From IMG/VR virus record IMGVR_UViG_3300045988_156575: DNA of 38,458 nt, one strand, 5' to 3'. The notes under the pieces were generated by a model. That model did no database searches, was not told the origin of the DNA, and saw nothing but the letters and a program-made list of their open reading frames with translations. The translations under genes and the position numbers were made by a program. This DNA is from a virus. This document shows, piece by piece, positions 11,633 to 27,495 of the stretch (position 1 is the stretch's first letter; every line of letters starts with the position of its first letter).

Positions 11633-12541
11633 ATGGCAAATGCAAAGACACTGGTCGTCGGCGGCCAGTCACTCAACGTCATCGACGATACCGCGCGCAG
11701 CAACGCGCAGACGGCGCTCAACAACGCCGAGTACAACCGAATGGCGCTCATCGGCAAGTACGGCGGTCAGAGCATCGCGACGCTGCTCGCCGGAGAGATC
11801 GGCGGCGGCACGGTCTACGACGCGCTGCACAAGCGCATCGTGGCGAACAACTTCGCGGGCCTGCGCGTGGGCGACTACCTCGACGTTCCGCTCGTCTCCG
11901 CGTCCGGCGTGGCGGGCCAGCAGTCCGTACGATTCATCATCGCGCACATCGACCCGTACCTGTGGTGCGACGACCGCAGCAAGGGGCACCACATCGCGTT
12001 CGTGGCCTCCGCGCCCATCGCGGTCAGCTCGTCCTACGACGGGGTCGCCAACTCCTCGTGCATCCCGTGGAACGAGACGAACACCAACCAGGGCACGGCG
12101 GACATCAAGAACCCGTACCTGTGCTCGCAGCTCAAGGGCTGGGAGACGGCCTTCGAGGCGTGCCTGCCCGAGGGCCTGACCAAGTACATCCTCACGCAGC
12201 GCGTGCTGCTCGAGGAGCGCTACAGCGCCTCCGGTGCGCTCACCGACTCCAACAACTGGAGCTGGCAGGACATCGGCAAGGTCTGGTCGCTCTCCGAGAT
12301 GGAGGTCTACGGCTGCCCGGTTTGGGGCACGCCCGGCTACTCCGTCGGCTTCGACTGCCAGTTCGACCTCTTCAAGGACACCGCACACCGACTCAACGGT
12401 AGCCGCTTCACCTGGTGGCTCCGTTCCGTCAGGGGTGGCTCGTCTGCGACCGTCTGCTACGTCAACACCAACGGCTCCGCCAGCTTCGGCGATGCCGCGA
12501 GCGCCTGGGTTCGCCCGCGCGTGGGCTTCCTCCTAGGGTAG
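11633..12541 (+). CDS. DGR target protein: terminal tail fibre / receptor-binding protein with a C-terminal variable region
   Basis: Strong RBS (AAGGAGG), 302 aa. The C-terminus ...SRFTWWLRSVRGGSSATVCYVNTNGSASFGDAASAWVRPRVGFLLG is encoded by the VR. Confidence 0.9.
   Translation: MANAKTLVVGGQSLNVIDDTARSNAQTALNNAEYNRMALIGKYGGQSIATLLAGEIGGGTVYDALHKRIVANNFAGLRVGDYLDVPLVSASGVAGQQSVRFIIAHIDPYLWCDDRSKGHHIAFVASAPIAVSSSYDGVANSSCIPWNETNTNQGTADIKNPYLCSQLKGWETAFEACLPEGLTKYILTQRVLLEERYSASGALTDSNNWSWQDIGKVWSLSEMEVYGCPVWGTPGYSVGFDCQFDLFKDTAHRLNGSRFTWWLRSVRGGSSATVCYVNTNGSASFGDAASAWVRPRVGFLLG
12401..12535 (+). repeat. DGR variable repeat (VR)
   Basis: It aligns to 13069-13203 at an offset of 668. Across 12401-12525 there are 15 mismatches, all at TR adenines, and no other mismatches. 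Confidence 0.92.
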
Positions 12542-12569
12542 CGAAGCGGACCGTACAGGACACCCATCG

Positions 12570-12596
12570 GGCGCACGCCTCGCGCGTGCGCCTTTT
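12570..12596 (+). terminator. GC hairpin plus T-run just downstream of the VR and target stop codon
   Basis: ggcgcacgc (12570-12578) pairs with gcgtgcgcc (12584-12592). The loop is 5 nt and TTTT follows. Confidence 0.65.
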
Positions 12597-12597
12597 C

Positions 12598-13044
12598 ATG
12601 TCACGAGAGAGGAGCATCGCCTTGAGCGGAGTACCCGAGAGGCTTAGAAACCTGAGCGAGCGCGAGTTCTACAACACGGCCATCGAGCTGCGCGTGGAGG
12701 TTCTGGGCATCATCACGTCGAGCGCCATCCCGAAATCGCAGCGCTTCACGTTCGCCGTCCCGATGGCGGAGACGGCCCGCAGCGTCGTCTACAACATCGT
12801 CAAGTCAGAGGCGTTCTACCCGAACACCCCCGAGAACGTCGCGGCACGCAAGCGCTACCTCACGTTGGCCGTCGCCGACTGCGAGCAGCTGTACCAGGAC
12901 GCGCAGGCATACCTCGAGGTGTACCGCCGGAAGGGGGACACGCAGCACGCCGGGGCATTCGAGCGCATGGCGGGGCTCGTCGACTCCGAGATAAAGCTGC
13001 TCAAGGGTGCGCGCAAGGGCGTCAAGCTGATCGGGACGCGGTAG
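12598..13044 (+). CDS. avd: Accessory variability determinant (Avd-like helical-bundle protein)
   Basis: It sits between VR and TR. The product is about 140-148 aa, predicted helical and basic at the C-terminus, with an ...AETARSVVYNIVKSEA... segment like the Avd / 23S-IVS protein family. An alternative TTG start at 12622 has a better RBS (GAGAGGAG). Confidence 0.7.
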   Translation: MSRERSIALSGVPERLRNLSEREFYNTAIELRVEVLGIITSSAIPKSQRFTFAVPMAETARSVVYNIVKSEAFYPNTPENVAARKRYLTLAVADCEQLYQDAQAYLEVYRRKGDTQHAGAFERMAGLVDSEIKLLKGARKGVKLIGTR

Positions 13045-13068
13045 AATGGCAGGACGTCGTCCCTTGTT

Positions 13069-13203
13069 AACCGCTACAACTGGTGGCTCCGTTCCGTCAG
13101 GGGTGGCTCGTCTGCGAACGTCTGCTACGTCAACAACAACGGCAACGCCAACTACAACGATGCCACGAACGACTGGATTCGCCCGCGCGTGGGATTGCTC
13201 ATA
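13069..13203 (+). repeat. DGR template repeat (TR)
   Basis: It is noncoding in context. In the VR-equivalent frame it reads NRYNWWLRSVRGGSSANVCYVNNNGNANYNDATNDWIRPRVG, with 9 AAC codons. It contains about 28 adenines, of which 15 are substituted in the VR. Confidence 0.92.
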
Positions 13204-13403
13204 CTCGCCAGACAGCCCCGCCCATGCGTGGGGCTCCGAGCACATGAGGAAGGAAGGGCCGACGTTCGGGCACGCGCCCGTAAAGACGCATCCCGCTGGG
13301 AGGGCAGTCCGCTCCTTGCATGGCCGCGAGCTTCGGCGCTCGACGCGGTTTCATTGCTCCTCCCTAAGCGGCCTGGGAACGCCGGCGCCCATAGGCGCAG
13401 GCC

Positions 13404-14639
13404 GTGCGGGATGCCACCATGAATAGCGATGAGCGCCGAAAGGCCAGGAGAGCCAGGCGCGATGCGAAGAGGGCCGCGAACAGGGCGAAGCGCTGCGCGG
13501 CCCTCACCATCTCCAATGCCGCCCGCATCGAAAACATCCACGAGGCGGCACGCGACGCCGCCAAGGGCGTCCGCTGGAAGGCGAGCGTCCAGCGCTACAT
13601 GATCCACTCCCTGCGCAACTCGCTCTACGCACGCCGGGACCTCCTGGCGGGCAACGACATCCGCAAGGGCTTCGTCCGGTTCCACGTCATCGAGCGCGGG
13701 AAGGACAGGGCGATAGCCGCCCCGCGGTTCTCCGAACGCGTGATACAGAAGGCGGTCACGAGGGCCGTCATGGCCCCGGCGGTGTGGCCGACGCTCACGC
13801 CGGGATGCGCGGCCAACATGCGCGGCAGGGGCACGGACTACGCCCTCATGCGCCTGAAGGGGCAGCTCGCCGAGCATTACCGCAGGCACGGCGCGGAGGG
13901 CTACGTCCTGCTCATGGACTTCTCCGACTACTTCGGGACAATCGACCATGGAACGGCGCTGGACCTCGTGAGACGGACGCTCGCAGACCCCGCGGCCGTC
14001 GAGTTCATGCGCCTGCAGATAGAGGCGAACGGCAGGATCGGGCTCGGCCTCGGCAGCGAGCCGAACCAGGCGCTGGCCGTCGCCATACCGTCCCCGCTCG
14101 ACCACCTCGGCGAGCGCTGGCGCGGAATCGAGGCGTCGGGCCGGTACATGGACGACTCCTACTTCATGGCGCTCGACAAGGAGACCCTCTGGCGGTTCCT
14201 CGACGCCGCCCGCGCCCTGTGCACGTCGCTCGGCATCACTATCAACGAGAGGAAGACAAGGGTGGTGAAGCTCACGCGCGGGTTCACGTTCCTCAAGAAG
14301 CGGTTCCGCTTCACCGAGTCGGGCAGGATCGTCGTGACGCCGATACCCAAGTCCCTCGCGCGTGAGCGCCGGAAGATGCGCACACATGCACGCATGGTCG
14401 CCGAGGGAAGCATGACGCTCGAGCAGGCGTACGTCTCCTACATGTCGTTCCGCGGGTCTCTCGAGCGGAAGCGGGGCGACGGCAGGCCGAGGTTCCGCAT
14501 GAACGTGCACCGGGTCGTGCGCGACTTCGACCGGCTGTTCGTCGAGCTAGTCGTCGGTGCCGGCCAGTCTCACGCCACCGATACGATGCCCGTACATCAA
14601 CTACACCCACTAACAGAAAGGAGTCCGAATGGACACTAA
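13404..14639 (+). CDS. DGR reverse transcriptase
   Basis: RT motifs are readable: KDRAIAAP, LLMDFSDYFGTIDH, GLGLGSEPNQALA, RYMDDSYF, INERKTRV, FTFLKKRF. The GTG start at 13404 and the ATG at 13419 are both possible. Confidence 0.9.
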   Translation: MRDATMNSDERRKARRARRDAKRAANRAKRCAALTISNAARIENIHEAARDAAKGVRWKASVQRYMIHSLRNSLYARRDLLAGNDIRKGFVRFHVIERGKDRAIAAPRFSERVIQKAVTRAVMAPAVWPTLTPGCAANMRGRGTDYALMRLKGQLAEHYRRHGAEGYVLLMDFSDYFGTIDHGTALDLVRRTLADPAAVEFMRLQIEANGRIGLGLGSEPNQALAVAIPSPLDHLGERWRGIEASGRYMDDSYFMALDKETLWRFLDAARALCTSLGITINERKTRVVKLTRGFTFLKKRFRFTESGRIVVTPIPKSLARERRKMRTHARMVAEGSMTLEQAYVSYMSFRGSLERKRGDGRPRFRMNVHRVVRDFDRLFVELVVGAGQSHATDTMPVHQLHPLTERSPNGH

Positions 14640-17387: not shown

Positions 17388-18626
17388 TCAGAGCGTCTCG
17401 GCGTCCAGACCGGTGCCATTAAAACCGCCGCCCGCGCCGCCGCCCTCGACGATCTGCAGAGCGCGCCCGACCTGCCTGGCGGCCTTCTCGCGCTCCGCGA
17501 GGCCCGGTTTGATGTAATGGCGGTAATCTGTCCCCAGGTCCGTATGACCGTGCAGATCCATGATGCTCAGCGGGTCGACCTCGGTCGCCGCCATGATGGT
17601 CTCGGACGTGTGGCGCAGGGCCTTAGGAGGGATATACCGCAGGTCATGGCGCACGCACATGCGCCGCCACGCCCGCACGAGATTATCGCCGCGCATATTG
17701 ACGATGCGCTGTCCGCTCCACTCCCGCACCTGCTCCGTAACCGAAGTGCCGCCCTCGACGGTTATGCTCGGGCGCAGCTCGTCCATGATCTGGTGCAGGC
17801 GCTCGCGGCCCGCCAATAAAACCGGCACGGTGCGCACGGAATGGGCGTTCTTGGTCTCCTTCACGCCGTCCTCGTCCGTGTACGCGCGGCAGACCTCGAT
17901 GTACTCCGACACGGTCGGCTGCCCAGTGGCGAAGTCGTAGGTCGTGGTGACCTTGAGGTCGCACGGGCGCACGGCCAGCGCCTCCTCCTTGCGCAGTCCG
18001 CTCAGGCCCAGGATGAGGTAGGCGTTCATGACCAGGTCCGCGCGGTCGTCGCTGGCGGCGAGCCTGCGCAGCGCCTCGGCGGCCTCGGGGATGCTCCACG
18101 GCTCCACGGGCGCCTGCTTGGCCTTGGGCGCTATGACGCGGCGGCGGAAGGGCTCCACCGTCACCCATCCGTCATCGAAGGCGCGGCGCATGACGGCGCG
18201 GAGTGTCGTCTTGGTCTTGGCCGGCGCGCCCGAGCGCTCGATGCAGCTTCGCATCATATCGTGGGTGATCTCGGAGATGTCGACCGACCCCAGGACGGGG
18301 GAGATGTAGTTGTCCATCTGGCCGTCGTACTCGCGTAGGCTCGCCTTTGAGCGCGGCTTGCCGCGGTTGCTGGGCGAGTCGCGGAACACGCCCCAGTAGT
18401 ACATGTCGAGCGTCACGCCCGCGTGCGCCGCCTGGGACACGCCGAGCTCGCGGGCGAGCTGGGCGATGGCGACGTCGGCCTCGGTCTCGGTGCCGTGGAC
18501 GGTGCGCGACACGCGCCGCACGTGTCCGTCCGCGCGGAAGCCCGCCTGCACGCGGATCACCCACTTGCCCGGAGCCACCTCGCGCTTCGAGCCGAGTTTT
18601 GACCTGGAATTGTCGTTGGTTGCCAT
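17388..18626 (-). CDS. int: Tyrosine integrase (phage integrase family), adjacent to attP
   Basis: Chosen start is MATNDNSRSK.... Catalytic-type motifs are ...GLRKEEAL..., ...ALRHTSETIMA..., ...LHGHTD..DYRHY. Confidence 0.88.
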   Translation of the reverse strand: MATNDNSRSKLGSKREVAPGKWVIRVQAGFRADGHVRRVSRTVHGTETEADVAIAQLARELGVSQAAHAGVTLDMYYWGVFRDSPSNRGKPRSKASLREYDGQMDNYISPVLGSVDISEITHDMMRSCIERSGAPAKTKTTLRAVMRRAFDDGWVTVEPFRRRVIAPKAKQAPVEPWSIPEAAEALRRLAASDDRADLVMNAYLILGLSGLRKEEALAVRPCDLKVTTTYDFATGQPTVSEYIEVCRAYTDEDGVKETKNAHSVRTVPVLLAGRERLHQIMDELRPSITVEGGTSVTEQVREWSGQRIVNMRGDNLVRAWRRMCVRHDLRYIPPKALRHTSETIMAATEVDPLSIMDLHGHTDLGTDYRHYIKPGLAEREKAARQVGRALQIVEGGGAGGGFNGTGLDAETL

Positions 18627-18664
18627 ATAATGGTCCTGCCTTTCCCTTATTTGCCGGAGGGCAT

Positions 18665-18706
18665 GCCCCGTGCGGATCCGCCAAGATTGCCGCACGGGGC
18701 TTTTTT
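18665..18706 (+). terminator. Strong plus-strand intrinsic terminator in the int-hicB gap
   Basis: 11-bp stem gccccgtgcgg (18665-18675) pairs with ccgcacggggc (18690-18700), followed by TTTTTT on the + strand only. Confidence 0.55.
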
Positions 18707-18735: not shown

Positions 18736-19185
18736 CTACGCCTCCGCCGCGGCCTTGCACGGACGGCCCGCCCCGGGCTTGGCCGCGATGCGGTACTCGA
18801 TGGAGTCGCGCGACACCATGCGGGTGTTGCCGACCCTCCAGCTGCTCAGACTCCCGTCGCGGCAGAGCTGCGCCACGCGCGCGGTGCTCACGCCGAGCAT
18901 CTCGGCGGCCTCGGCTGCGGTTACGGCCGGGATGTCGGACAGCTCGACGCTGGTCGCGACGGTGACGATCGTGCCGCCGTGGGACGGCGCATGGCCAAGC
19001 CCGCCGCCCTCGAACTCCGCCCCGCGCTCCAGCGCCGCCAGGGCATGGACGCGCAGCCAGTCGACGGCCATCTCCACGGCCTCCTCGTAGGTATCGCCCT
19101 CGGTGGCCCCGGCGAGCCCGCACGGCTCCACGGCGTAGCCGCCCTCGGGGTCGGGGTAGACCTCGAACTCCTGCATGACGATCAT
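18736..19185 (-). CDS. hicB: HicB-like antitoxin fused to an excisionase/MerR-type HTH
   Basis: The N-terminus ...FEVYPDPEGGYAVEPCGLAGATEGDTYEEAVEMAVDWL is a HicB-type fold signature. The C-terminus VTAAEAAEMLGVSTARVAQLCRDGSLSSWRVGNTRMVSRDSI is an excisionase-family HTH pattern. RBS GGAAAGGAG. Confidence 0.7.
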   Translation of the reverse strand: MIVMQEFEVYPDPEGGYAVEPCGLAGATEGDTYEEAVEMAVDWLRVHALAALERGAEFEGGGLGHAPSHGGTIVTVATSVELSDIPAVTAAEAAEMLGVSTARVAQLCRDGSLSSWRVGNTRMVSRDSIEYRIAAKPGAGRPCKAAAEA

Positions 19186-19222
19186 GGTGGTCTCCTTTCC
19201 TGCGGTGAAGGGGAGGGCGGGG

Positions 19223-19402
19223 CTAGAGCAGCCCCGCTTCCTTCCTGATTCCCCTCGCGGTCGTCTCCTTTATCTCCCGGTGCCTGGGCACTGTCACCGT
19301 CACGTCCCCGCGGCGGAACTTGTCGTGCTTGGCGCCGGTGCCGCTGAGCTTTACGTAGCCCGCTTCGGTCAGCTCCCGCTCGAGGTCCCTCTTCTTAGTC
19401 AC
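19223..19402 (-). CDS. hicA: HicA-family toxin (59 aa; not in the supplied ORF track)
   Basis: My translation of the minus strand is VTKKRDLERELTEAGYVKLSGTGAKHDKFRRGDVTVTVPRHREIKETTARGIRKEAGLL. The start is GTG, 7 nt after an AAAGGAG RBS. Confidence 0.75.
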   Translation of the reverse strand: MTKKRDLERELTEAGYVKLSGTGAKHDKFRRGDVTVTVPRHREIKETTARGIRKEAGLL

Positions 19403-19606: not shown

Positions 19607-19897
19607 ATGGCTCGCTGCAGCGTCGGCGCATATACGTACGAGGACGATTCCTGCGACACGATGATCTACGACGGGCTCACGGGCATTCCGCTGAGCCTTG
19701 GGTACGAGCTCGTTTCGCAGGAGCGCGGAGACACCGTGAGGGTCGTCGCCCTTGGAGTGAAGGACGACGCTGCGGGCCCTGTCCCGTTTGCGACGCTCAG
19801 GCCGTGCGCATACTCCCTGGCATCCGAATACGATGTGCGCGCCGTGAGGTGCCCGCAGACCGGTCAATGGGTCCTCATCGGGTACATGGGCGTCTAG
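19607..19897 (+). CDS. Hypothetical protein (96 aa)
   Basis: A GGAGG RBS lies 5 nt before the ATG. No motif recognised. Confidence 0.5.
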   Translation: MARCSVGAYTYEDDSCDTMIYDGLTGIPLSLGYELVSQERGDTVRVVALGVKDDAAGPVPFATLRPCAYSLASEYDVRAVRCPQTGQWVLIGYMGV

Positions 19898-19923: not shown

Positions 19924-19964
19924 GACGGAGAGGATGCCTGCTACCGGTCTCTCGTCTTTCTCGT

Positions 19965-20882
19965 CTAGTCAAACACGAGATATAGCTTCGTTGCGTTGCT
20001 GTTGTCTTGAAAGTAGTCATACATATAGCAGGCGCGGCACTGCCTTTCTTTGTATTCGGTAAGCTGCTTGTATACCTTAAGGTTGCTCGCGTTTATTTCT
20101 ACGAGCGGCTCCTTTCCCGCCAAGATCCTAATATGGGGCTTTGCGGATGAACCCTTTGGTGTCGGGATTATCTCGAAGTTCGGTGTAAAGCGGAGATCTC
20201 CTATTGGTGGTGTTCCGGCAATCCAGTTGTGTTCCGTAACGTTTATCCACACCTCGCTTGAGGTCTCATGGAGCTCGATTCCGGTTCGGTTTTGCCTGAT
20301 TTCTGAAATCCTCGCCCTGTATCGTTCCTCATTTATATGTAGTTCGTTCTCTTCTGAGAAGGGAACGGGCTCGGTTGTTAGTTTTTGTCTTTCCCACCAC
20401 TGCTTCAGGAGTCGCGGGTCCGCGGTCATGGTGACAAGTTCGGGAATCCCCGCGGAGTACATTCCGATCTTCTTAACTTTGACCTGAACCTTAAATCCGG
20501 CTGTGACCATTTCCTTGAGAAAGCCCAGGCATGAAGGCGTGAGCCCAAATGTGCGACCTTTATAGGCAAGAGGCGTGTCCCCAAATGCGCCGCTATCAGT
20601 GGTCGTCCCGGTCGACTTGCTGTGAATAACTGTGTCAAATCCGAGCGGGGCCACGTAAAACACCGCTCCTTTTTTGACCCCTTTAAACACGGCGCCGAGA
20701 TACGTGTAAATGACTTTCTCAGTATCGCCGTCGATGTCTATGACGCGCGCGGCGGGGTGCCTGCCATTTCGTACGGACATGGCGGCAGAGTCGGACACGC
20801 CTTCCGTGGAAGGAGTGCGCGCACTCGTCGATGCTCCATTGCTCGTAAAAATCGATTTAACTAATGAGCTGAAAAGGCCCAT
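19965..20882 (-). CDS. Orphan 305-aa protein, low GC, co-operonic with the CI-like repressor (candidate lysogen-expressed exclusion/defence gene)
   Basis: The ATG lies 6 nt after an AGGAGG RBS and 19 nt downstream of the repressor stop. GC content is clearly lower than in the rest of the genome. No TM segments or known catalytic motifs recognised. Confidence 0.7.
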   Translation of the reverse strand: MGLFSSLVKSIFTSNGASTSARTPSTEGVSDSAAMSVRNGRHPAARVIDIDGDTEKVIYTYLGAVFKGVKKGAVFYVAPLGFDTVIHSKSTGTTTDSGAFGDTPLAYKGRTFGLTPSCLGFLKEMVTAGFKVQVKVKKIGMYSAGIPELVTMTADPRLLKQWWERQKLTTEPVPFSEENELHINEERYRARISEIRQNRTGIELHETSSEVWINVTEHNWIAGTPPIGDLRFTPNFEIIPTPKGSSAKPHIRILAGKEPLVEINASNLKVYKQLTEYKERQCRACYMYDYFQDNSNATKLYLVFD

Positions 20883-20901
20883 GGGTACCTCCTGACCCTT
20901 G

Positions 20902-21312
20902 CTACGCGGACTTTATTTGATCCGCTTCCAGCCCTTCGCCTTCAGGCGCTGCAGCCTGAGCTTGGGAGAGCTCGGCCTGGTCGCGTGCCGTCTCCAGGAT
21001 CTTCGAGCGCCTCTTCTCGGTGCTCCGTCGGTAGCAGGTGATCAGCTCGCCCTCTTCTTGCGTCTGATTTTGCTGGGACTCCATCGGGGACCATTCCCTG
21101 CCCCCTAAGGTGTCTAGCGAGCAGTTGAGAGCGTCAGCAATTCTCCAGGCCGCATCAAATGCCATGCTGCGGCGTCCTTGCTCGTATTCCGTGTAACGGC
21201 TTGCCTCAAATCCGGCATGTTTCGCAAACGCCGCGGCGCTTTTGAAGCCAGCAGACTTTCTGAGCAACTGTATGTTCTTACCGACCTGCTTCCTAAGAGT
21301 GTCTTCTGTCAT
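20902..21312 (-). CDS. CI-like repressor, XRE-family HTH, without a recognisable S24 peptidase domain
   Basis: The HTH segment is ...IQLLRKSAGFKSAAAFAKHAGFEASRYTEYEQGRR.... It is divergent from a Cro-like gene across an operator-rich spacer. Confidence 0.75.
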   Translation of the reverse strand: MTEDTLRKQVGKNIQLLRKSAGFKSAAAFAKHAGFEASRYTEYEQGRRSMAFDAAWRIADALNCSLDTLGGREWSPMESQQNQTQEEGELITCYRRSTEKRRSKILETARDQAELSQAQAAAPEGEGLEADQIKSA

Positions 21313-21343
21313 TGGGCCTCCTCCCGTTGCTACCTAAGAAATT

Positions 21344-21440
21344 AAGGCAAAGCGCCAAATATTTCAATCAAATACTGAAATCTTTGTTGACAACTAGGCA
21401 GAGAGCCGTAATATTGAAGGCAGCAATTAGGCAGAGAGCC
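21344..21440. promoter_or_regulatory. Operator-like direct repeats (TAGGCAGAGAGCC x2 plus a degenerate AAGGCAAAGCGCC)
   Basis: Exact 13-mers at 21395-21407 and 21428-21440, and a related copy at 21344-21356. One copy fills the promoter spacer. Confidence 0.55.
21387..21414 (+). promoter_or_regulatory. Sigma-70-type early promoter (TTGACA, 16-nt spacer, TAATAT) facing the cro-like gene
   Basis: TTGACA at 21387-21392 and TAATAT at 21409-21414. Confidence 0.6.
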
Positions 21441-21444
21441 AAAA

Positions 21445-21468
21445 AACATCTTCTATATAGAAGATGTT
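21445..21468. promoter_or_regulatory. Perfect 24-bp palindrome AACATCTTCTAT/ATAGAAGATGTT
   Basis: 12+12 perfect inverted repeat downstream of the early promoter. Confidence 0.55.
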
Positions 21469-21470
21469 AC

Positions 21471-21500
21471 GGCTGAGGTTGACAGCGCTCAACCTCAGCC
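21471..21500 (+). promoter_or_regulatory. 12-bp-stem hairpin in the cro leader
   Basis: ggctgaggttga (21471-21482) pairs with tcaacctcagcc (21489-21500), with a 6-nt loop and no U-tract. Confidence 0.5.
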
Positions 21501-21532
21501 CCTCTCATTCCCGCAGATGAAAGGAGTTGTCA

Positions 21533-21760
21533 ATGGCATTTAGCAAGGAAGAGATGTCCGCATGCCTTCGTGAACTTCGTGCTCGCAAGCGCGTTACCCA
21601 ACAGGAGGTCGCCGACGCTGTTGGGGTGGATGCCACGAGCATCTACAACTACGAGAACGGTCGCACGGCACCGACTTTTGAAATCGCTTGGCGCCTTGCA
21701 GATTTTTTTGACGTTTCCCTTGACCGCTTGGGCGGGCGAAACACGGACGAGGCCGCGTAG
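21533..21760 (+). CDS. Cro-like XRE-family HTH regulator
   Basis: The ATG follows a GAAAGGAG RBS. The HTH is ...VTQQEVADAVGVDATSIYNYENGRT.... Its C-terminal WRLADFFDVSLDRLGGR parallels WRIADALNCSLDTLGGR in the repressor. Confidence 0.75.
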   Translation: MAFSKEEMSACLRELRARKRVTQQEVADAVGVDATSIYNYENGRTAPTFEIAWRLADFFDVSLDRLGGRNTDEAA

Positions 21761-22717: not shown

Positions 22718-22944
22718 CGGCGGAGTCAGCCCCCGCCGCGCCACGGGTTCCGCACCGCCCCCATTCCGCGGGGCCCGTGGCGCGACGGGGCCGGACTTCC
22801 TACTTCCGGCCCGCAAGGTGTCCGCCGCCGACTTGGCGGGGCGGCGGCACCGCTCCCTTTGGCGGGGGAGCGCCCTCCGGCTGCATCTATCGGTGCGGCC
22901 CTCCGGCAAGGGATTGGCTCTGTTACGTGTGAAAGGAGAAGGCC

Positions 22945-23175
22945 ATGTGGATGTCGATAGCCAAGGGCGCGCGTTACGCCTGCTGCGACAACGTCACGTT
23001 CCGCGCGATGGTCATGCAGGGCGTGATACCGCGCTACCCGTCGCTCAACCCCAACAGCTCGCGCGAGGTGGTGAGCAGCGAGGACATCGACGCCGCCATC
23101 AGGGCGCGCGGGGCGGTGCCGGCGCTGCCGTCGCCCGACTGCGTGCCGGCGCGCCGTCCGAGGCGGGTGGCGTGA
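22945..23175 (+). CDS. Xis/AlpA-like HTH DNA-binding protein (excisionase candidate)
   Basis: RBS GAAAGGAG. The segment ...SIAKGARYACCDNVTFRAMVMQGVIPRYP....VVSSEDIDAAI fits the excisionase-family HTH layout. Confidence 0.5.
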   Translation: MWMSIAKGARYACCDNVTFRAMVMQGVIPRYPSLNPNSSREVVSSEDIDAAIRARGAVPALPSPDCVPARRPRRVA

Positions 23176-23333
23176 TGGGCGACCTTATCTGGGATGCCGG
23201 CTGCAGGCTCGGCGAGTGGTGGAACTCGCTGCCCGAGCGCGTGCGCAGCGTCGCGTGCGCCGTGGCGCTCATCGGCCTGATCGCCGTCGCCGGCGCCATC
23301 GAGGGGACCGCCCCGAGCGGGATGTACTACTAG
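23175..23333 (+). CDS. Small membrane protein (52 aa)
   Basis: TGATG overlap start and a hydrophobic helix VACAVALIGLIAVAGAI. Confidence 0.45.
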   Translation: MGDLIWDAGCRLGEWWNSLPERVRSVACAVALIGLIAVAGAIEGTAPSGMYY

Positions 23334-23343
23334 GAGGAATGAC

Positions 23344-24597
23344 ATGCAATTCGAGAAGAAGTCTGTGCGCCTGGGCGATATCCGCCCGAGCGGGCAGAAC
23401 CCGCGCGAGGACTTCGGCGATATCGGCGCCCTGGCCCGCAGCATCGAGGCGACCGGCGGCGAGCCGCTGAACCCGCCCGTGGTCGTGGCGGACGGCAACG
23501 TCTACCGCATCGTGGACGGGGAGCGCCGCTACCGCGCGCTGTCCTCGATTTACAGGGAGGACCGCGAGGTCTCCGCGCTGGTGGCGGAAAGCATGGACGA
23601 GGCCAACGAGCTCGTGGCCATGCTCGCCACCGACGACAAGCGCCAGCTGACCGAGGCGGAGCGCGCCCGCGGCGTGCAGCAGATGCTCGTGCTTGGCGTC
23701 GACGAGCAGCGCATCGAGCGCGCGAGCCGCGCCACCGCCAGGCAGATCCGCGCGGCGCGCAGGCTGCGCGGGAGTATCGAGGGCCGGCAGGTGACGCTGG
23801 AGCAGCTCGAGGCGGCGTCCGCCTTCGACGACGAGAAGGACATCGAGGCTGTCCTCGCCGCAGGTGACGGCTGGGCGGGCAAGGCCGACAGCATCCGACG
23901 CCGCGTCGAGCGCGAGGAGGCCAAGGCCGAGGACTACGACGCCTTCGGCGATGCGGGCATCCCGGTCGTGAAGGAGCAGCCCGAGGGTTTCAACTACACG
24001 GACTGGGCCAACGTCGGCCTCGCCGCCCAGAAACTCGAAGGGAAGGAGTTCGCCGCCGGCACCGTTGCCGTGTGGAAGGGCAACTACTGGGATCTCTACG
24101 AGCCGGATGACGGCTCGGGCGCCGCGCCCGAGAAGACCGAGGAGGAGATGCGGGCCGAGCAGGAGGCCGAGCGCGAGAAGGCGGCGCTCGAGGAACTGTA
24201 CAGGAGCCTGATCGGCTTCGTGTCGTCCGGCGCCTTTGCCATGTCCAAGGACCTCATGATGGAGGTGCGCGTGGGCCGCGAGGACCCGCCCGCGCTGCTC
24301 ATGGCGATGGGCGGCGACAGCCACCCCGAGAACGAGGGGCGTTTCGGACTCGTGCGAGACGAGTTCGCCCGCAACCTCAAGGCCTGCAGGCCCAGCGAGT
24401 ACGAGGCCGGCTGCTGGCTCATGGCGGCGGCCAAGGACATGGCCCAGCTCAACAACCGCTGGGGCGGCGACGACGCGGAGGCGTGGCTCGACCATTATGA
24501 CATCTTCCTCTCCGCGGGCTTCGAGCCCGGCGAGGAGGACGTGTGGCTCATGGAGAGGGTTCAGGCGAGCGCCAAGGAGGATGAGAAGGATGAGTAG
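23344..24597 (+). CDS. ParB/Srx N-terminal-domain protein
   Basis: TAGGAGG RBS. Motifs are ...IRPSGQNPRED... and ...YRIVDGERRYRAL..., followed by a long acidic C-terminal region. Confidence 0.75.
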   Translation: MQFEKKSVRLGDIRPSGQNPREDFGDIGALARSIEATGGEPLNPPVVVADGNVYRIVDGERRYRALSSIYREDREVSALVAESMDEANELVAMLATDDKRQLTEAERARGVQQMLVLGVDEQRIERASRATARQIRAARRLRGSIEGRQVTLEQLEAASAFDDEKDIEAVLAAGDGWAGKADSIRRRVEREEAKAEDYDAFGDAGIPVVKEQPEGFNYTDWANVGLAAQKLEGKEFAAGTVAVWKGNYWDLYEPDDGSGAAPEKTEEEMRAEQEAEREKAALEELYRSLIGFVSSGAFAMSKDLMMEVRVGREDPPALLMAMGGDSHPENEGRFGLVRDEFARNLKACRPSEYEAGCWLMAAAKDMAQLNNRWGGDDAEAWLDHYDIFLSAGFEPGEEDVWLMERVQASAKEDEKDE

Positions 24598-24946
24598 CGA
24601 GAAGAAGGTCAGGGTGACGGTCGAGGCGTGCGGCGAGGTCCGCGCTTTCGAGTGCCGCTGCGCGACGGTCGCGACCGCCAAAGGGGACGGCTCCGGCGAC
24701 TCATGCTTCGTGGGCCCGACCGACATCAGCGACCTGTTCGCGCTCGCCTGCGAGTGCACCGACACGCTCTGCGCGGCCTTCAGCCAGGCGGGTATCCCGG
24801 ACAGGAACGCGCGCAAGCTCGTGCTCATCGCCGCGCTCGGCGCCAATCCCCATGGGCACGCCGACAGCATCCAGACCACCGACCTGGACGCGCGCAGGGA
24901 GATCCGCGACATGGCGGCGGAGCTGGGCGTCGATGCCGACATCTAG
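24590..24946 (+). CDS. Hypothetical Cys-rich protein (118 aa)
   Basis: The ATG follows AAGGAGG and overlaps the upstream stop. Confidence 0.5.
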   Translation: MSSEKKVRVTVEACGEVRAFECRCATVATAKGDGSGDSCFVGPTDISDLFALACECTDTLCAAFSQAGIPDRNARKLVLIAALGANPHGHADSIQTTDLDARREIRDMAAELGVDADI

Positions 24947-26126
24947 CGACCGCCGGGCGGTCGTGCAGCGCGGGGCGGACGGCAGATGGTTCGCCCGCCC
25001 CTACATGGGCACCGACCGCGTGACCGGAAGGCGGATCAGGCCGTACAGGTCGTGGGACGCGGAGCTGACGCGCGAGCAGGCCCAGGCCGAGTGCGACAGG
25101 TGGGCGGCCACGTTCGACCCGTCGTCGGCCCGGGACAGCTCCAAGCGCCTGTCCTCGATGCTCGAGACGTACATCTCGGACCCGGTGAACGGGCTGTCCG
25201 ACAACTCCGTGGCCACGTACCGCAGCGTCGTCAGGACGATGGTGGAGCCGACCATCGGGCGGCTTCCCTACGACCAGCTTGAGCCCTGGGACGTGTCGGC
25301 CGCCTACCGTATGCTGCTCGTCCCAAGGACGGGCAAGGGGCTGTCGCCCAAGACGTTGCTCAAGATGCACGCGCTGCTGAAGGGCGCCTACCGCTCGTGG
25401 CAGCCGGCGCTGGGGCGGGACATCATGCTCGACGTCCCCGCGCCCTCGCCCGACCCCGTCGAACCCTTCGCGCTGTCCGAGTGCGATACCGACGAGCTGT
25501 CCCGCGCGCTGGTCTCCGCCATGTCCTCGCGCTCGGCCTCGGGCGCCAACATCTCTCGGCGCACCGAGGCCATGGCGGCCTACCTCGCCCTCAACACGGG
25601 ACTGCGCTGCGGGGAGGTCTGCGGGCTGCAGCGCCGAGACTGGCGCCGCGCCCTGCACGACCTGCACGTCGTGGGACAGGCGGTCGAGCACCCCGAGCTG
25701 CACCGGCAGGCCTACACCAAGGGCCGGCGCGTGCGCAACGTGGCGCTCGCCCCGACGGTGGAGGCGCAGCTGCAGCGCCACCTGGAGTGGCAGGACACGT
25801 GGCTCTCGCGCAAGGGCCCGGCGGCGCTGGTGGTGACCTTCGGGCCGGCAGGCGGCATCGCGCGCCCGTCCACCGTGACGAGCCGCTTCAAGTCGCTCGT
25901 GAGGGACCTGGGGCTGCCGGAGGAGACGGTGTTCCACTCCCTGAGGCACACGCACGCCTCATGGCTGCTCATGAACGGGTTCGACATGAGGACCATCCAG
26001 GAGCGCCTGGGGCACGCGAGCGTCAAGACGACGCTCGACATCTACGGCTCGGTCATGCCGGGCCGCGACCAGGCCGCCGCCGCGGCCTTTACCGATTCGA
26101 TCTGCGGAGGTGATACGGATGAATAA
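24933..26126 (+). CDS. Second tyrosine recombinase (XerC/D- or Cre-like phage integrase family) in the early operon
   Basis: Motifs are ...LNTGLRCGEVCGL..., ...HSLRHTHASWLL..., ...LGHASVKTTLDIYGSV. Confidence 0.85.
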   Translation: MPTSSDRRAVVQRGADGRWFARPYMGTDRVTGRRIRPYRSWDAELTREQAQAECDRWAATFDPSSARDSSKRLSSMLETYISDPVNGLSDNSVATYRSVVRTMVEPTIGRLPYDQLEPWDVSAAYRMLLVPRTGKGLSPKTLLKMHALLKGAYRSWQPALGRDIMLDVPAPSPDPVEPFALSECDTDELSRALVSAMSSRSASGANISRRTEAMAAYLALNTGLRCGEVCGLQRRDWRRALHDLHVVGQAVEHPELHRQAYTKGRRVRNVALAPTVEAQLQRHLEWQDTWLSRKGPAALVVTFGPAGGIARPSTVTSRFKSLVRDLGLPEETVFHSLRHTHASWLLMNGFDMRTIQERLGHASVKTTLDIYGSVMPGRDQAAAAAFTDSICGGDTDE

Positions 26127-26790
26127 CTTCAACTTCAACAGGGACTTCTACGAGGGCTGCCGCGCCCTGGGCGACAGGGAGGGCATGGCGCTCGCGTGGG
26201 CGATGCTGCGCTACGGCTACGAGGGCATCGAGCCAAAGCTTAAGCCCACCACCATGGCGGCGTTCACCTTCGCGAGGGGCCGCATCGACGCCATGGTCAA
26301 CGGCAGCCTCGGGGGGCAGGCGAGGGCCGCCAAGGCAGGCGGCATCGCAACCGCCCAAGGGGGTAGCCAAGGGGGTGTCCAAGGGGGTAGCCGACCCAGC
26401 GGGCGAGGGGGTAGCCAACAGAAAGAGAAGGAGAAGGAGATAGCCCTAGCGGGCTATAGCGCGGCCCGCCAAGCACCCGATGACTTCGAGCCCCCGTCGG
26501 CCGAGGACGTGGAGGCGTACTTCGCCGCCAACTGCCTCCGGGGCGACGCCCGCCAGTTCTTCGACCACTACGCCGCGCAGGGGTGGACGCTGCCGAGCGG
26601 CCTGCCCGTGACCGACGTGTGGGCGCTCGCCCGCAACTGGAGCCGCAAGCAGGTCGGCTTCGACGCGGACCGCAAGGCCCGCGGCGGGCAGACCTCCCAG
26701 GAGGTCGAGCGCGCCGCCGTGTGGCGGCCCGTGAAGACCGATGACGAGCTCATAGCCGAGCTCGATCGCCAGATAGCGGAGGCGTCATGA
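26119..26790 (+). CDS. DUF6291-like phage protein (replication organiser candidate) with a Gly/Gln-rich linker
   Basis: GGAGG RBS. The N-terminus FNFNRDFYEGCRALGDREGMALAWAMLRYGYEG... resembles the DUF6291 N-terminal pattern as I recall it. The function call is positional. Confidence 0.5.
   Translation: MNNFNFNRDFYEGCRALGDREGMALAWAMLRYGYEGIEPKLKPTTMAAFTFARGRIDAMVNGSLGGQARAAKAGGIATAQGGSQGGVQGGSRPSGRGGSQQKEKEKEIALAGYSAARQAPDDFEPPSAEDVEAYFAANCLRGDARQFFDHYAAQGWTLPSGLPVTDVWALARNWSRKQVGFDADRKARGGQTSQEVERAAVWRPVKTDDELIAELDRQIAEAS
26357..26416 (+). repeat. Iteron-like repeats (A/G)AGGGGGT(A/G)(G/T)CC x4 inside the organiser gene
   Basis: Copies at 26357, 26369, 26381 and 26405. A 24-nt nearly all-purine tract and the inverted repeat atagccc/gggctat (26440-26457) follow. 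Confidence 0.6.
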
Positions 26791-27143
26791 TCACCCTCAT
26801 GGAGATGCTCAGGAACGAGAAGGCCGACCCCTCACACGGCCGCCCGCTCAGCCTGACGAAGGTCTACATGACCAACGTCATGTCGCGGAGGGAGGCCGTG
26901 CTGCTGGCCAAGATCCAGAAGCGCGACGCGGCGATTGCGCGCCGGCAGCGCGAGAAGGACCTGTACGAGGAGATCGCCAAGCTCGCGAAGGGTGAGGACC
27001 CGAAGGACGGGAAGCCGAATCGCGGGTGTGCCAAAGGTGTGCCAACGGCGGCGGGGCAGCTGGGCATGCAGGCGTTGGGGTTCCCGCCGCTAGACAGTGG
27101 AAACGACGCCGGCGGGGAAGCCCCCGGCGCAAAGAACACCTAA
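26787..27143 (+). CDS. Hypothetical early protein (118 aa)
   Basis: ATGA overlap with the upstream gene. Confidence 0.5.
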   Translation: MITLMEMLRNEKADPSHGRPLSLTKVYMTNVMSRREAVLLAKIQKRDAAIARRQREKDLYEEIAKLAKGEDPKDGKPNRGCAKGVPTAAGQLGMQALGFPPLDSGNDAGGEAPGAKNT

Positions 27144-27171
27144 TTCTTTTGAGATTGAGAGGAGAGAGGTT

Positions 27172-27495
27172 TTGACCGAGATCTCAGCGGTGATGAGGGC
27201 CTACCGCGACGCCCTCGACAGGCACCGGATTCCCTGGGCCGACGACACGCAGGACACCGAGCGCGTGGGCGGCTACAGGCTGCGCGTGGAGCGTACCGTG
27301 ACCATCCTGGACGACGAGATGGTGAGCGTGCTCTGGGGCTATCAGTGCCTGCCGGGCCGCGAGCCCACGGGTGTGAGCATCGGGTACCCGAACTACCTCG
27401 AGGTGCAGTACGACCCCGTGAGCACCGAGCCGTTCATGGCCACGCCGGGCGACATCCTGGCCGGCATCTTCGGCGTGAGGGGTGAGTCGAGGTGA
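27172..27495 (+). CDS. Hypothetical early protein (about 107 aa)
   Basis: The TTG start follows a GAGAGGAGAGAGG RBS. The longer ATG start at 27097 overlaps the previous gene. Confidence 0.45.
   Translation: MTEISAVMRAYRDALDRHRIPWADDTQDTERVGGYRLRVERTVTILDDEMVSVLWGYQCLPGREPTGVSIGYPNYLEVQYDPVSTEPFMATPGDILAGIFGVRGESR

What the first reader, a model, noticed from the sequence alone, without database searches (positions are those of the whole stretch)
19965..20882. Low-GC orphan gene co-transcribed with the repressor: candidate lysogen-expressed exclusion or defence function
The 305-aa ORF starts 19 nt after the CI-like repressor stop with a consensus AGGAGG RBS, so it should be made whenever the repressor is made. 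This is the position rexAB occupies behind cI in lambda.

Its composition is strikingly different from the rest of the genome: long AT-rich runs, and GC by eye in the mid-40s percent against roughly two-thirds elsewhere. That argues for recent horizontal acquisition. I recognise no family, catalytic motif, TM segment or signal peptide. An unknown, foreign, lysogeny-expressed gene is the best place in this window to look for an undescribed anti-phage or host-modulating function.
Basis: inference. Interest (0 to 1): 0.72.

Follow-up and report, generated by a model that had tools for sequence, protein, structure and literature searches.

The report
Swappable prophage cargo gene behind repressor
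A real, conserved but unnamed gene sits in an exchangeable cargo slot directly behind the repressor of a Collinsella gut phage, and its predicted protein looks membrane-tethered with DNA-end-binding-like (HIRAN-like) domains, which makes it a good but untested candidate for blocking incoming phage DNA.

Summary
The ORF is real. It lies on the minus strand (19965-20882, 305 aa), 19 nt after the stop of a 136-aa XRE-type repressor, with AGGAGG 5 nt before the ATG. At 51.2% GC it is the lowest-GC stretch of a 66.6% GC window.

It is not an orphan. About 109 clusters at 50% identity exist in prophages of Collinsella, Olsenella, Thermophilibacter and Bifidobacterium longum. None is named, and Pfam, PHROGs, PADLOC and NCBIfam have no model. 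dN/dS is 0.12-0.37.

Near-identical repressors in other phages carry different genes in this position. Similarity breaks exactly at the repressor stop codon and resumes about 20 nt after the ORF's stop. Among more distant relatives of this repressor, one has AbiD behind it and one a RhuM/PDC-S05 protein. So this is an exchangeable cargo cassette, not an obligate partner of the repressor.

The predicted protein has:
- a short conserved N-terminal hydrophobic/amphipathic motif, replaced by 1-2 transmembrane helices in some subfamilies;
- a disordered linker;
- two beta-rich domains.

The C-terminal domain matches only HIRAN domains by fold, and weakly. There is no sequence-level match.

The closest analogues are the uncharacterised phage E6 gp33 and pneumococcal "ThaL".

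Best reading: a lysogen-expressed exclusion or defence factor that acts on DNA ends at the membrane. The function itself is untested.

The parts
19965..20882 (-). orf305 coding sequence (305 aa, ATG to TAG)
   Evidence: Conserved in 56 clusters at 90% identity and 109 at 50%. dN/dS 0.12-0.37.
20844..20882 (-). Residues 1-13, MGLFSSLVKSIFT: conserved N-terminal hydrophobic/amphipathic motif, the inferred membrane-targeting element
   Evidence: M1 and G2 are invariant or nearly so. Hydrophobic moment about 0.5. Relatives carry 1-2 TM helices here instead: 35 of 144 full-length members. Membrane binding itself is inference.
20751..20843 (-). Residues 14-44: low-complexity, predicted disordered linker
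   Evidence: pLDDT below 50 for residues 1-38. Length is variable across the family.
20379..20750 (-). Residues 45-168: N-terminal beta-rich domain with the conserved loop HSKSTGT..D
   Evidence: pLDDT 86-96. Strand/helix order matches my recollection of the HIRAN topology (my mapping, inference). Foldseek aligns the full-length model over 328 columns with phage E6 gp33, whose first globular domain is a Pfam HIRAN.
20274..20378 (-). Residues 169-203: connecting region with a long helix (177-200)
   Evidence: DSSP on the model.
19968..20273 (-). Residues 204-305: C-terminal HIRAN-like domain
   Evidence: A stand-alone model of residues 201-305 has pLDDT 94.1. Its top PDB matches are almost all HIRAN domains (3k2y, 4xzg, 4s0n, 5bnh, 6l8n), with probability up to 0.96, TM 0.42-0.48 and E 0.07-0.3.
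20130..20165 (-). Residues 240-251, P-T-P-K-G-S-S-A-K-P-H-I: the most conserved motif of the family
   Evidence: In 42 diverse members: S245 42/42, A247 41/42, P249 41/42, G244 40/42, H250 40/42, K248 39/42. It lies in the loop between the strands at 234-239 and 250-255, which I map to the 3'-end-binding loop of HIRAN (inference).
20883..20901 (-). 19-nt intergenic spacer with RBS AGGAGG (20888-20893)
19945..20901 (-). The exchangeable cargo cassette (spacer, orf305 and about 20 nt)
   Evidence: blastn breakpoints against L052, L054, L056, L057, L058 and L061: similarity ends at 20899-20902 and resumes at 19944 in L054 and L056.
20902..21312 (-). 136-aa XRE-type HTH repressor (CI position). 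Its C-terminal tail (about 20902-21057) is nearly identical across at least 4 HTH types
   Evidence: mosaic breakpoint at 21054-21057.
21313..21526 (.). Divergent switch region with candidate operators
   Evidence: Three 15-nt direct repeats at 21345, 21396 and 21429, a 24-bp perfect palindrome at 21445-21468, and a plus-strand promoter-like site at 21387-21415.
21527..21760 (+). 77-aa Cro-like HTH
   Evidence: HTH_3 6.3e-17.
17388..18695 (-). Tyrosine integrase, closing the lysogeny module (context)
   Evidence: Phage_integrase 5.1e-5, below the Pfam cut-off. A homologous integrase lies 60-2500 nt downstream of the gene in most related loci.

Best explanation
orf305 is a genuine accessory ('moron') gene. 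It occupies an exchangeable cargo slot immediately downstream of the repressor gene of a temperate Collinsella phage, and is therefore most likely made with the repressor in lysogens.

The predicted protein is cytoplasmic but tethered to the inner face of the membrane by a short N-terminal amphipathic element. Some subfamilies have 1-2 TM helices there instead. A flexible linker follows, then two beta-rich domains joined by a long helix. The C-terminal domain, and probably the N-terminal one, has a HIRAN-like fold. HIRAN is a fold that binds free DNA ends in HLTF and Rad5.

Most likely mechanism (inferred, not shown): in the lysogen the protein meets the end of incoming linear DNA at the membrane and sequesters or marks it. 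This would prevent establishment of a superinfecting phage, i.e. superinfection exclusion or defence. No enzymatic effector domain is recognisable, so sequestration is more parsimonious than killing the cell.

Shown: the gene is real and conserved; the cassette is exchangeable; the repressor coupling holds; the fold resemblance exists; N-terminal membrane-type elements are present.

Inferred: expression in lysogens, membrane binding, DNA-end binding and the anti-phage effect.

My confidence is about 0.55 that it is a lysogeny-expressed accessory gene with an exclusion or defence role. It is about 0.25-0.3 for the specific DNA-end mechanism. The overall figure is a compromise between these.
For: Gene reality: 56 and 109 clusters; dN/dS 0.12-0.37.

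Coupling to the repressor: a 19-nt gap with AGGAGG and no terminator-like site between. Gaps of 0-19 nt behind an HTH repressor recur in about 35 of 48 family loci, which include duplicate contigs, including relatives at 35% identity. The gene also follows HTH+Peptidase_S24 repressors directly (L028, L030).

Cargo slot: among 34 repressor-anchored IMG/VR loci with room downstream, 9 carry this family and 25 carry other genes. Breakpoints fall exactly at the repressor stop and about 20 nt past the ORF stop. Behind two distant relatives of the repressor (32-33% identity) the next downstream genes are AbiD and RhuM/PDC-S05. Abi_2 lies near a family member in L029, and an SLFN-g3 helicase lies next to one in L031. 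In B. longum the gene sits in the integrase-repressor interval but is convergent to the likely repressor, so it does not depend on repressor adjacency.

Fold: the full model has pLDDT 81.8 and the C-domain model 94.1. PDB top hits are almost exclusively HIRAN. In BFVD the top hit is phage E6 gp33 at E 2.3e-6, followed by two HIRAN-annotated phage proteins. E6 gp33 has 2 apparent hydrophobic N-terminal segments (by eye from the sequence), a linker and a Pfam HIRAN (2e-10). It sits behind an HTH that is divergent from another HTH, the same layout as here.

Membrane element.

[quoted passage not shown] HIRAN domains in HipL/HipN toxin-antitoxin (TA) systems were proposed to recognise the DNA ends of invading phages (PMC8262856).
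Against: - No sequence-level link to HIRAN. There is no Pfam hit for any of 42 members, and the PDB profile search is empty. hhalign against the E6 gp33 family gives probability below 1%.
- The fold matches are weak: E 0.07-0.3, TM below 0.5, rmsd about 6 A.
- By my mapping, the loop where HLTF has its 3'-OH-binding Asp carries G-S-x-A-K-P-H instead, so the ligand may not be a 3'-OH DNA end at all.
- The domains are not notably basic (median pI 6.6-6.9).
- The window protein has no TM helix, and its N-terminal motif is short, so membrane binding is unproven.
- PADLOC has no model for it.
- Cargo in lysogeny modules can instead tune prophage induction, as shown for SzaL and SpaL in pneumococcus (PMC12637031).
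- Expression and phenotype are untested.
Confidence: 0.45

Rival explanations
1. It is a modulator of the prophage's own lysis-lysogeny decision. A sensor with a HIRAN-like fold would detect free DNA ends or ssDNA from damage, replication stress or DNA uptake. It would then tune repressor activity or the timing of induction, rather than act on other phages.
For: - The gene is tightly coupled to repressor genes of several types.
- The window's repressor is only 136 aa and has no Peptidase_S24 domain. No ImmA/M78 protease was found among the genes scanned, so its route of inactivation is unknown.
- The repressor's C-terminal tail co-occurs with this family down to 35% identity.
- HIRAN domains are linked to damaged DNA and stalled forks (PMC11706625, PMC8262856).
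- The lysogeny-module cargo proteins SzaL and SpaL alter prophage activation in pneumococcus (PMC12637031).
Against: - Phages with repressors 88-96% identical, tail included, lack the gene and carry unrelated cargo. The repressor therefore works without it.
- The gene also follows repressors that have their own S24 autocleavage domain.
- In B. longum it coexists with a separate M78 protease and is convergent to the likely repressor gene.
- The same repressor tail pairs with orf305 alleles only 62-67% identical, so there is no tight co-variation.
- A membrane tether is not obviously needed for this role.
Confidence: 0.2
2. It acts on host DNA traffic rather than on phages. For example, it could block natural transformation or conjugative DNA entry by capturing incoming single-stranded DNA ends at the membrane. 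That would protect the prophage from being deleted by recombination.
For: - The architecture is the same as for the best explanation: a membrane element plus a HIRAN-like fold.
- Prophages and transformation are in conflict, and lysogeny-module genes take part in that conflict in pneumococcus (PMC12637031).
- A DprA gene is present in a Collinsella chromosome next to a related prophage (L001). This shows only that part of the competence machinery exists.
Against: - Nothing here shows that Collinsella is transformable.
- No specific link to competence genes was found.
- The other occupants of the slot that can be identified are anti-phage genes (AbiD, PDC-S05).
Confidence: 0.1
3. It is the toxin or effector of a two-gene HTH-regulated toxin-antitoxin or abortive-infection module. 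The upstream HTH would be its antitoxin or regulator rather than the phage repressor.
For: - The pairing of an XRE-type HTH with a downstream gene, with overlapping or abutting reading frames, is typical of type II TA systems.
- Phage E6 and locus L002 carry this pair as a second divergent HTH cassette, beside another repressor-like cassette.
- HIRAN domains occur in HipA-type TA systems (PMC8262856).
Against: - The HTH occurs without the gene in 25 of 34 loci, and the gene occurs without an adjacent HTH in B. longum, L027 and L031.
- In the window the HTH is the only candidate repressor found. It faces a Cro-like gene across an operator-rich region.
- No toxin-like catalytic domain or pore is recognisable.
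Confidence: 0.07

Closest known systems
Propionibacterium phage E6 gp33 (AOT24562.1, UniProt A0A1D8EU41; annotated 'DNA binding domain protein', uncharacterised)
   Same: - It is the best structural match, at Foldseek E 2.3e-6 over 328 columns.
- It has an N-terminal membrane element, a linker and several beta-rich domains.
- It lies directly behind a small HTH gene that is divergent from another HTH gene in a temperate actinophage.
   Different: - It is 532 aa with 2 apparent N-terminal hydrophobic (TM-like) segments and a bona fide Pfam HIRAN (2e-10). The window protein is 305 aa, has no TM helix and no Pfam hit.
- There is no detectable sequence or profile similarity.
- In E6 this cassette is a second HTH pair, beside the annotated immunity repressor.
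[quoted passage not shown]
   Same: It is a membrane-anchored HIRAN-type protein encoded in the lysogeny module of a prophage with a C1-type repressor in a Gram-positive host.
   Different: - Only the name and the description are available; I could not obtain its sequence, so homology is untested.
- It has a true TM segment and an annotated HIRAN domain.
- Its function was not tested in that paper either.
HIRAN domain (Pfam PF08797; HLTF 4s0n/4xzg, Rad5 6l8n, L. plantarum lp_0118 3k2y)
   Same: - It is essentially the only fold class recovered for the C-terminal domain: 17 of the top 18 PDB matches, probability up to 0.96.
- The order of strands and helices is the same (my mapping, from memory of the HLTF structure).
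   Different: - TM is only 0.42-0.48 and E 0.07-0.3.
- There is no HMM match.
- The signature loop is G-S-x-A-K-P-H-I rather than N-x-x-D-x-N-A-I (HIRAN consensus recalled from memory), so the 3'-OH-binding Asp has no evident counterpart.
Lambda RexA/RexB
   Same: They are genes made with the repressor in the lysogen that exclude other phages, and the position behind the repressor gene is the same (established knowledge of lambda; position here).
   Different: - Rex is a two-protein sensor plus membrane channel (established knowledge). Here there is a single gene and no channel.
- No similarity in PADLOC or PHROGs.
Superinfection-exclusion genes of Gram-positive siphophages (lactococcal Sie2009, S. 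thermophilus Ltp) and prophage-mediated defence genes of mycobacteriophages (from my own knowledge, not checked in papers here)
   Same: They lie in the repressor-integrase interval, are expressed from the prophage, are membrane-associated, and vary between related phages.
   Different: - Those proteins are small TM proteins or lipoproteins acting at the outer face or within the membrane.
- This one is a 305-aa protein predicted to be cytoplasmic, with folded domains.
- No PHROG match.
HipN/HipL HIRAN-containing toxin-antitoxin components (PMC8262856)
   Same: A bacterial HIRAN module in a conflict system, proposed to sense the DNA ends of invading phages.
   Different: Those are fused or paired with HipA-type kinases and HipS-like domains. 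No kinase lies next to the gene in any locus examined.

Membership tests
HIRAN domain (PF08797) | Match to the Pfam HMM above the gathering score | tested here: not met
   No HIRAN hit at E<=1 for the window protein or any of the 42 family members scanned. E6 gp33 scores 40.8 bits as a positive control.
HIRAN domain (PF08797) | HIRAN fold (small beta-barrel with two helices) | tested here: inconclusive
   A C-domain model with pLDDT 94 hits almost only HIRAN structures at the top, but with E 0.07-0.3 and TM 0.42-0.48. The full model gives the same hits. The N-domain was not tested on its own.
HIRAN domain (PF08797) | Conserved 3'-end pocket residues (HLTF Asp94 with flanking aromatics; residue numbers from memory) | tested here: not met
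   By topological mapping the equivalent loop is P-x-P-x-G-S-x-A-K-P-H-I, with no Asp. The mapping is mine and not a structural superposition, so this is provisional.
HIRAN domain (PF08797) | Binding of free DNA 3' ends | not testable with these tools
   Needs gel-shift or fluorescence anisotropy assays with defined DNA ends.
Membrane-anchored HIRAN proteins of prophage lysogeny modules (ThaL, E6 gp33) | Location in the lysogeny module next to the repressor | tested here: met
   E6 layout; ThaL description.
Membrane-anchored HIRAN proteins of prophage lysogeny modules (ThaL, E6 gp33) | Transmembrane anchor | tested here: inconclusive
   The window protein has no TM helix (KD maximum 1.03) but does have a conserved N-terminal amphipathic motif. 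35 of 144 full-length relatives have TM segments in its place.
Lambda RexAB-type exclusion | Homology to RexA or RexB; a two-component sensor plus membrane channel | tested here: not met
   No PADLOC or PHROG match. Single gene, no TM channel. Only the position behind the repressor is shared.
ImmA/IrrE (Peptidase_M78) anti-repressor protease | M78 domain with an HEXXH motif, encoded next to its repressor | tested here: not met
   No Pfam M78 hit. No HEXXH motif by eye in the sequence. B. longum prophages carry a separate M78 gene as well as a family member.
Type II toxin-antitoxin pair (XRE antitoxin plus toxin) | Obligate co-occurrence of the two genes | tested here: not met
   25 of 34 repressor loci lack the gene. 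The gene occurs without an adjacent HTH in L027, L031 and L033-35.
Prophage cargo ('moron') in a defence hotspot | Alternative unrelated genes at the same position in otherwise similar phages, with sharp breakpoints | tested here: met
   (breakpoints at 20899-20902 and at 19944 or 19489). AbiD and PDC-S05 lie behind distant relatives of the same repressor.
Prophage cargo ('moron') in a defence hotspot | Demonstrated anti-phage phenotype | not testable with these tools
   Needs phage challenge of strains with and without the gene.

The most novel reading that the evidence does not exclude
Membrane-tethered proteins built from HIRAN-like domains would form a widespread, uncharacterised class of lysogeny-module proteins in Gram-positive prophages. 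The class would include this family in Collinsella, Olsenella and Bifidobacterium, phage E6 gp33 and pneumococcal ThaL. These proteins would capture the free end of DNA as it enters the cell, either the single-stranded cohesive end of a superinfecting phage genome or incoming transforming ssDNA. That would be a new exclusion mechanism acting on the DNA end itself, rather than on the receptor, the injection channel or the sequence. The divergent G-S-x-A-K-P-H pocket would then define a new end- or nucleotide-recognition variant of the HIRAN fold.
Probability: 0.2. Interest if true: 0.8.

Novelty: new variant of a known kind. Interest (0 to 1): 0.55.

Why it matters
Cargo genes beside prophage repressors are a proven source of exclusion and defence functions, but almost nothing is known about them in gut Actinomycetota. 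This family is common in human-gut metagenomes: one 90%-identity cluster alone has 554 member sequences, and the B. longum form has clusters of up to 977. It has no name in any of the four libraries searched.

If it does bind DNA ends at the membrane, three things follow:
- it would add a mechanistically new class of exclusion;
- it would give a function to the equally uncharacterised ThaL and E6 gp33 proteins;
- it would extend the HIRAN fold to a new ligand pocket.

The precisely bounded cargo slot behind a conserved repressor tail is also a practical handle for mining further candidates. Two unnamed families with hydrophobic C-terminal tails were found there in passing.

Tried and rejected
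Sequence-level searches that found no named relative:
- Pfam, PHROGs, PADLOC and NCBIfam on the protein and on relatives: nothing. The only Pfam line was VasX_N at E 0.11 (13 bits against a cut-off of 27), which I dismiss as noise.
- Profile search of PDB sequences: empty.
- tblastn against 50,697 cultured phage genomes: only a chance hit at E 0.5. megablast of 10 kb around the gene: no match.
- Profile-based homologous-protein search (alignment A2): it found more family members, including the B. longum TM forms, but no protein with any precomputed Pfam HIRAN domain.

Attempts to link the family to HIRAN by sequence, all negative:
- hhalign of the family against E6 gp33 and its 5-member family, whole and domain by domain, and N-domain against C-domain. 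All gave probability below 1%.
- So neither the HIRAN link nor an internal duplication can be claimed from sequence.

Hypotheses considered and rejected:
- An ImmA-like protease for the repressor. Rejected because there is no M78 domain or HEXXH motif, the gene follows S24-bearing repressors, and B. longum has a separate M78 gene.
- An obligate repressor partner acting through the conserved repressor tail. Rejected because identical tails occur with other cargo. The tail coincides with the DNA-level junction between immunity module and cargo slot.
- A spurious ORF. Rejected on conservation and dN/dS.

Other:
- The first attempt at search for related loci with the diverse alignment failed because no stretch was conserved enough. 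It was redone with the closer alignment.
- I could not retrieve Foldseek residue ranges or model coordinates, so which residues align to HIRAN in the full-length search is unknown. That is why the C-domain was modelled separately.
- E6 gp33 has no relatives in cultured phages beyond E6 itself.
Full report
**1. What is in the sequence**

The ORF exists at the stated coordinates but on the minus strand. ATG is at 20882-20880, TAG at 19967-19965, and the product is 305 aa.

Upstream on the same strand lies a 136-aa XRE-type HTH protein at 20902-21312 (HTH_31 1.7e-9, HTH_3 2.9e-7; phrog_8). It is transcribed divergently from a 77-aa Cro-like HTH at 21527-21760. The 214-nt region between them holds three 15-nt direct repeats and two perfect inverted repeats, as expected for a genetic switch.

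The gap between the repressor stop and the ORF start is exactly 19 nt (CAAGGGTCAGGAGGTACCC). AGGAGG lies 5 nt before the ATG. The consensus scan finds no terminator-like site between the two genes.

Downstream on the minus strand come three further elements:
- a convergent 96-aa ORF;
- a HicA/HicB-like pair;
- a tyrosine integrase at 17388-18695.

The rest of the window is a siphophage-like genome. It has a tape measure protein, an amidase, a portal, a ParB-like protein and a second recombinase. No tRNA gene was found.

**2. Composition**

The ORF is 51.2% GC against 66.6% for the window. It is the lowest-GC 918-nt stretch in the window; 0.05% of such windows are as low. Its GC3 is 0.59, against 0.69-0.97 (mostly above 0.8) for every other predicted gene except the repressor and cro.

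The repressor (GC3 0.66) and cro (0.62) share the deviation, so the whole immunity region is atypical, not this gene alone.

**3. Not an orphan**

A search of 5.8 billion proteins found 56 clusters. A full HMMER pass over 1.84 billion 50%-identity representatives found 109, of which 55 are below 1e-10. None carries a name beyond 'hypothetical protein'.

Genome hits are in Collinsella (13 of 18 loci), Olsenella and Thermophilibacter. Four short MAG contigs are labelled Sodaliphilus, Bacteroidaceae or uncultured bacterium. A profile search added 405-423-aa forms from Bifidobacterium longum. Sixteen IMG/VR viral contigs carry the gene.

Pairwise dN/dS is 0.12-0.37, so it is a protein under purifying selection. 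Pfam, PHROGs, PADLOC, NCBIfam and a PDB sequence-profile search all return nothing.

**4. Genomic context: a cargo slot**

In about 35 of 48 family loci (which include duplicate contigs), the gene follows an HTH repressor by 0-19 nt. These include relatives at only 35% identity.

Context elsewhere:

| Locus | What lies next to the family member |
|---|---|
| L028, L030 | Directly behind a full HTH+Peptidase_S24 repressor |
| L033-35 (B. longum) | In the integrase-repressor interval, beside a separate Peptidase_M78 gene, convergent to the likely repressor |
| L029 | A relative sharing only the C-terminal domain follows an HTH, with an Abi_2 gene two genes further on |
| L031 | An SLFN-g3-type helicase gene |

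The reverse survey is the key result. I anchored on the repressor's conserved C-terminal tail and retrieved 36 viral loci. Of the 34 with room downstream, 9 carry this family and 25 carry something else:
- two unnamed families of 184-240 aa with hydrophobic C-terminal tails;
- AbiD (PADLOC 1.1e-41), 144 nt behind a repressor only 33% identical to the window's;
- a RhuM/PDC-S05 protein (1.5e-138), 34 nt behind a repressor only 32% identical and lacking the tail motif.

Several of the loci without the family have repressors 88-96% identical to the window's. blastn places the breakpoints at the repressor stop codon (20899-20902), and at 19944 (L054, L056) or 19489 (L052, L061) on the far side. 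The unit 19945-20901 is therefore a discrete exchangeable cassette.

A second mosaic junction lies at 21054-21057, between the HTH domain and the tail. The tail (E-E-G-E-L-x-x-C-Y-R-x-S-T-E-K-R-R-S-K-I-L-E-T-A-R-D-Q-A-E-L-S-Q...) is nearly identical behind at least four different HTH domains. It also pairs with orf305 alleles only 62-67% identical. It is best read as the conserved junction between the immunity module and the cargo slot, not as a co-evolving partner surface.

**5. The protein**

AlphaFold2 with a 26-sequence alignment gives pLDDT 81.8. The layout is:

| Residues | Feature |
|---|---|
| 1-38 | Disordered |
| 47-166 | Beta-rich domain |
| 177-200 | Long helix |
| 209-304 | Second beta-rich domain |

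Foldseek against the PDB returns HIRAN domains at the top: HLTF, Rad5 and lp_0118, at E 0.07-0.3 and probability up to 0.89. Against BFVD the top hit is Propionibacterium phage E6 gp33, at E 2.3e-6 over 328 columns. Two HIRAN-annotated phage proteins follow at about 6e-3.

A separate model of residues 201-305 has pLDDT 94.1. It again hits almost only HIRAN structures, with probability up to 0.96 and TM 0.42-0.48. The C-terminal domain is therefore HIRAN-like by fold, though weakly.

The N-terminal domain has the same order of strands and helices by my reading. It probably corresponds to the bona fide HIRAN of E6 gp33. This could not be tested separately, and it remains inference.

The family's most conserved motif is P240-x-P-x-G-S245-x-A-K248-P-H250-I. 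It sits in the loop that I map to the 3'-end-binding loop of HIRAN. It has no counterpart of the HLTF Asp, so the ligand may differ.

At the sequence level nothing links the family to HIRAN or to E6 gp33.

**6. The N-terminus**

The protein has no TM helix. It does begin with a conserved MG-hydrophobic-hydrophobic-x-x-hydrophobic-hydrophobic motif. By eye this motif opens most family members, and M1 and G2 are invariant or nearly so.

In 35 of 144 full-length relatives one or two TM helices stand there instead. Charge distribution suggests that the globular part stays cytoplasmic in those forms.

From memory, the motif resembles the membrane-binding first helix of PspA/Vipp1. That is a lead, not a test.

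**7. Known analogues**

E6 gp33 has:
- two apparent hydrophobic N-terminal segments (by eye);
- a Pro-rich linker;
- a Pfam HIRAN domain (2e-10);
- further domains.

It lies directly behind an 89-aa HTH that is divergent from an 83-aa HTH and an antirepressor gene.

[quoted passage not shown] It did not test the gene's function. It did show that other lysogeny-module cargo proteins, SzaL and SpaL, modulate prophage activation (PMC12637031).

HIRAN domains in HipL and HipN were proposed to sense the DNA ends of invading phages (PMC8262856). HIRAN-HipA clusters lie near defence genes in Actinobacteria (PMC11706625).

**8. Interpretation**

What is shown:
- a real, conserved, unnamed gene;
- tight coupling to the repressor gene;
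- a sharply bounded, exchangeable cargo slot;
- known defence genes behind distant relatives of the same repressor;
- a two-domain protein with a HIRAN-like C-terminal fold;
- a membrane-type N-terminal element.

What is inferred:
- expression in the lysogen;
- membrane tethering;
- recognition of nucleic-acid ends;
- an exclusion or defence effect.

The obligate-partner, ImmA-like and toxin-antitoxin readings are contradicted by the free recombination of repressor and cargo. A role in tuning the prophage's own induction remains the main rival. An effect on DNA uptake is a further possibility.

**9. Verdict**

Its interpretation is partly supported. This is a lysogeny-module cargo cassette and a reasonable defence or exclusion candidate, but its function is untested.

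It is best classed as a new variant of a known kind, namely prophage cargo beside the repressor. It is distinguished by a membrane-tethered, HIRAN-like architecture that recurs, uncharacterised, in other Gram-positive prophages.

Interest 0.55.

Noticed in passing
window 11633-14639: A diversity-generating retroelement. It has a reverse transcriptase (RVT_1, 411 aa) at 13404-14639 and a template repeat at 13068-13203. The variable repeat at 12400-12535 lies at the 3' end of the 302-aa gene 11633-12541. The repeats are 87% identical, and within the repeat the mismatches fall at template adenines.
   Followed up: partly
window 20902-21057 and loci L008, L010, L012, L018, L019: The C-terminal 50 residues of the repressor are nearly identical behind at least four different HTH domains. 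DNA-level mosaic breakpoints fall at 21054-21057 and at the stop codon. The tail therefore looks like a conserved recombination junction between the immunity module and the cargo slot.
   Followed up: yes
L052:4437-4994, L073:4270-4824, L083:4237-4794, L084:4319-4873; L054:4478-5200, L069:4423-5082: Two unnamed cargo families (184-189 aa and 219-244 aa) occupy the same slot behind the repressor in 22 of 34 related viral contigs. Both end in a hydrophobic, Gly/Ala-rich tail such as ...GLVPKVAKAIGTLAALLGA. Neither has a credible match in Pfam, PADLOC or NCBIfam (only a marginal GajB line, E 0.009, for the 219-aa representative). In L014 one of them sits directly after an orf305 homologue.
   Followed up: partly
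window 21313-21526: The switch region holds three 15-nt direct repeats (AGGCARAGMGCCRWA at 21345, 21396 and 21429) and a perfect 24-bp palindrome at 21445-21468. A second inverted repeat lies at 21471-21500. These are candidate operators.
   Followed up: no
window 23344-26126: A ParB_N-domain protein (417 aa) is followed by a second tyrosine recombinase (424 aa, Phage_integrase 1.2e-21) in the early region. This is in addition to the integrase at 17388-18695. A similar ParB_N plus integrase pair occurs in L029.
   Followed up: no
window 18736-19402: A HicA toxin (59 aa, 8.8e-10) lies with a 149-aa protein carrying a C-terminal HTH_17 domain, whose N-terminal half looks HicB-like by eye. They sit between the cargo slot and the integrase, and are present or absent independently of orf305 in related phages.
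   Followed up: partly
window 19607-19897 (+): A 96-aa ORF convergent to orf305 is conserved in several Collinsella prophages, with GC3 0.80-0.94. It has no significant match in Pfam, PHROGs, PADLOC or NCBIfam. It behaves as a separate cassette: it is retained in L054 and L056 but absent in L052, L061 and L010.
   Followed up: partly
L026 (phage E6, KX620753) 22813-27273; L002 6043-10858: Phage E6 and one metagenomic prophage each carry two divergent HTH/HTH cassettes in tandem. Only the second is followed by the HIRAN-type gene. This suggests that the HTH pair plus the HIRAN-like gene can travel as a unit.
   Followed up: no
P0107, P0114; L029 5001-5909: Some relatives share only the C-terminal HIRAN-like domain with the G-S-K-A-K-P-H motif, and have an unrelated N-terminal domain. 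The C-domain is therefore the common module of the family.
   Followed up: partly
L022/L024 6978-7697: In Thermophilibacter and Olsenella, a 239-aa protein is inserted between the tail-bearing repressor and the orf305 homologue. By eye its N-terminus looks like a lipoprotein signal. This shows that the slot can hold more than one cargo gene.
   Followed up: no
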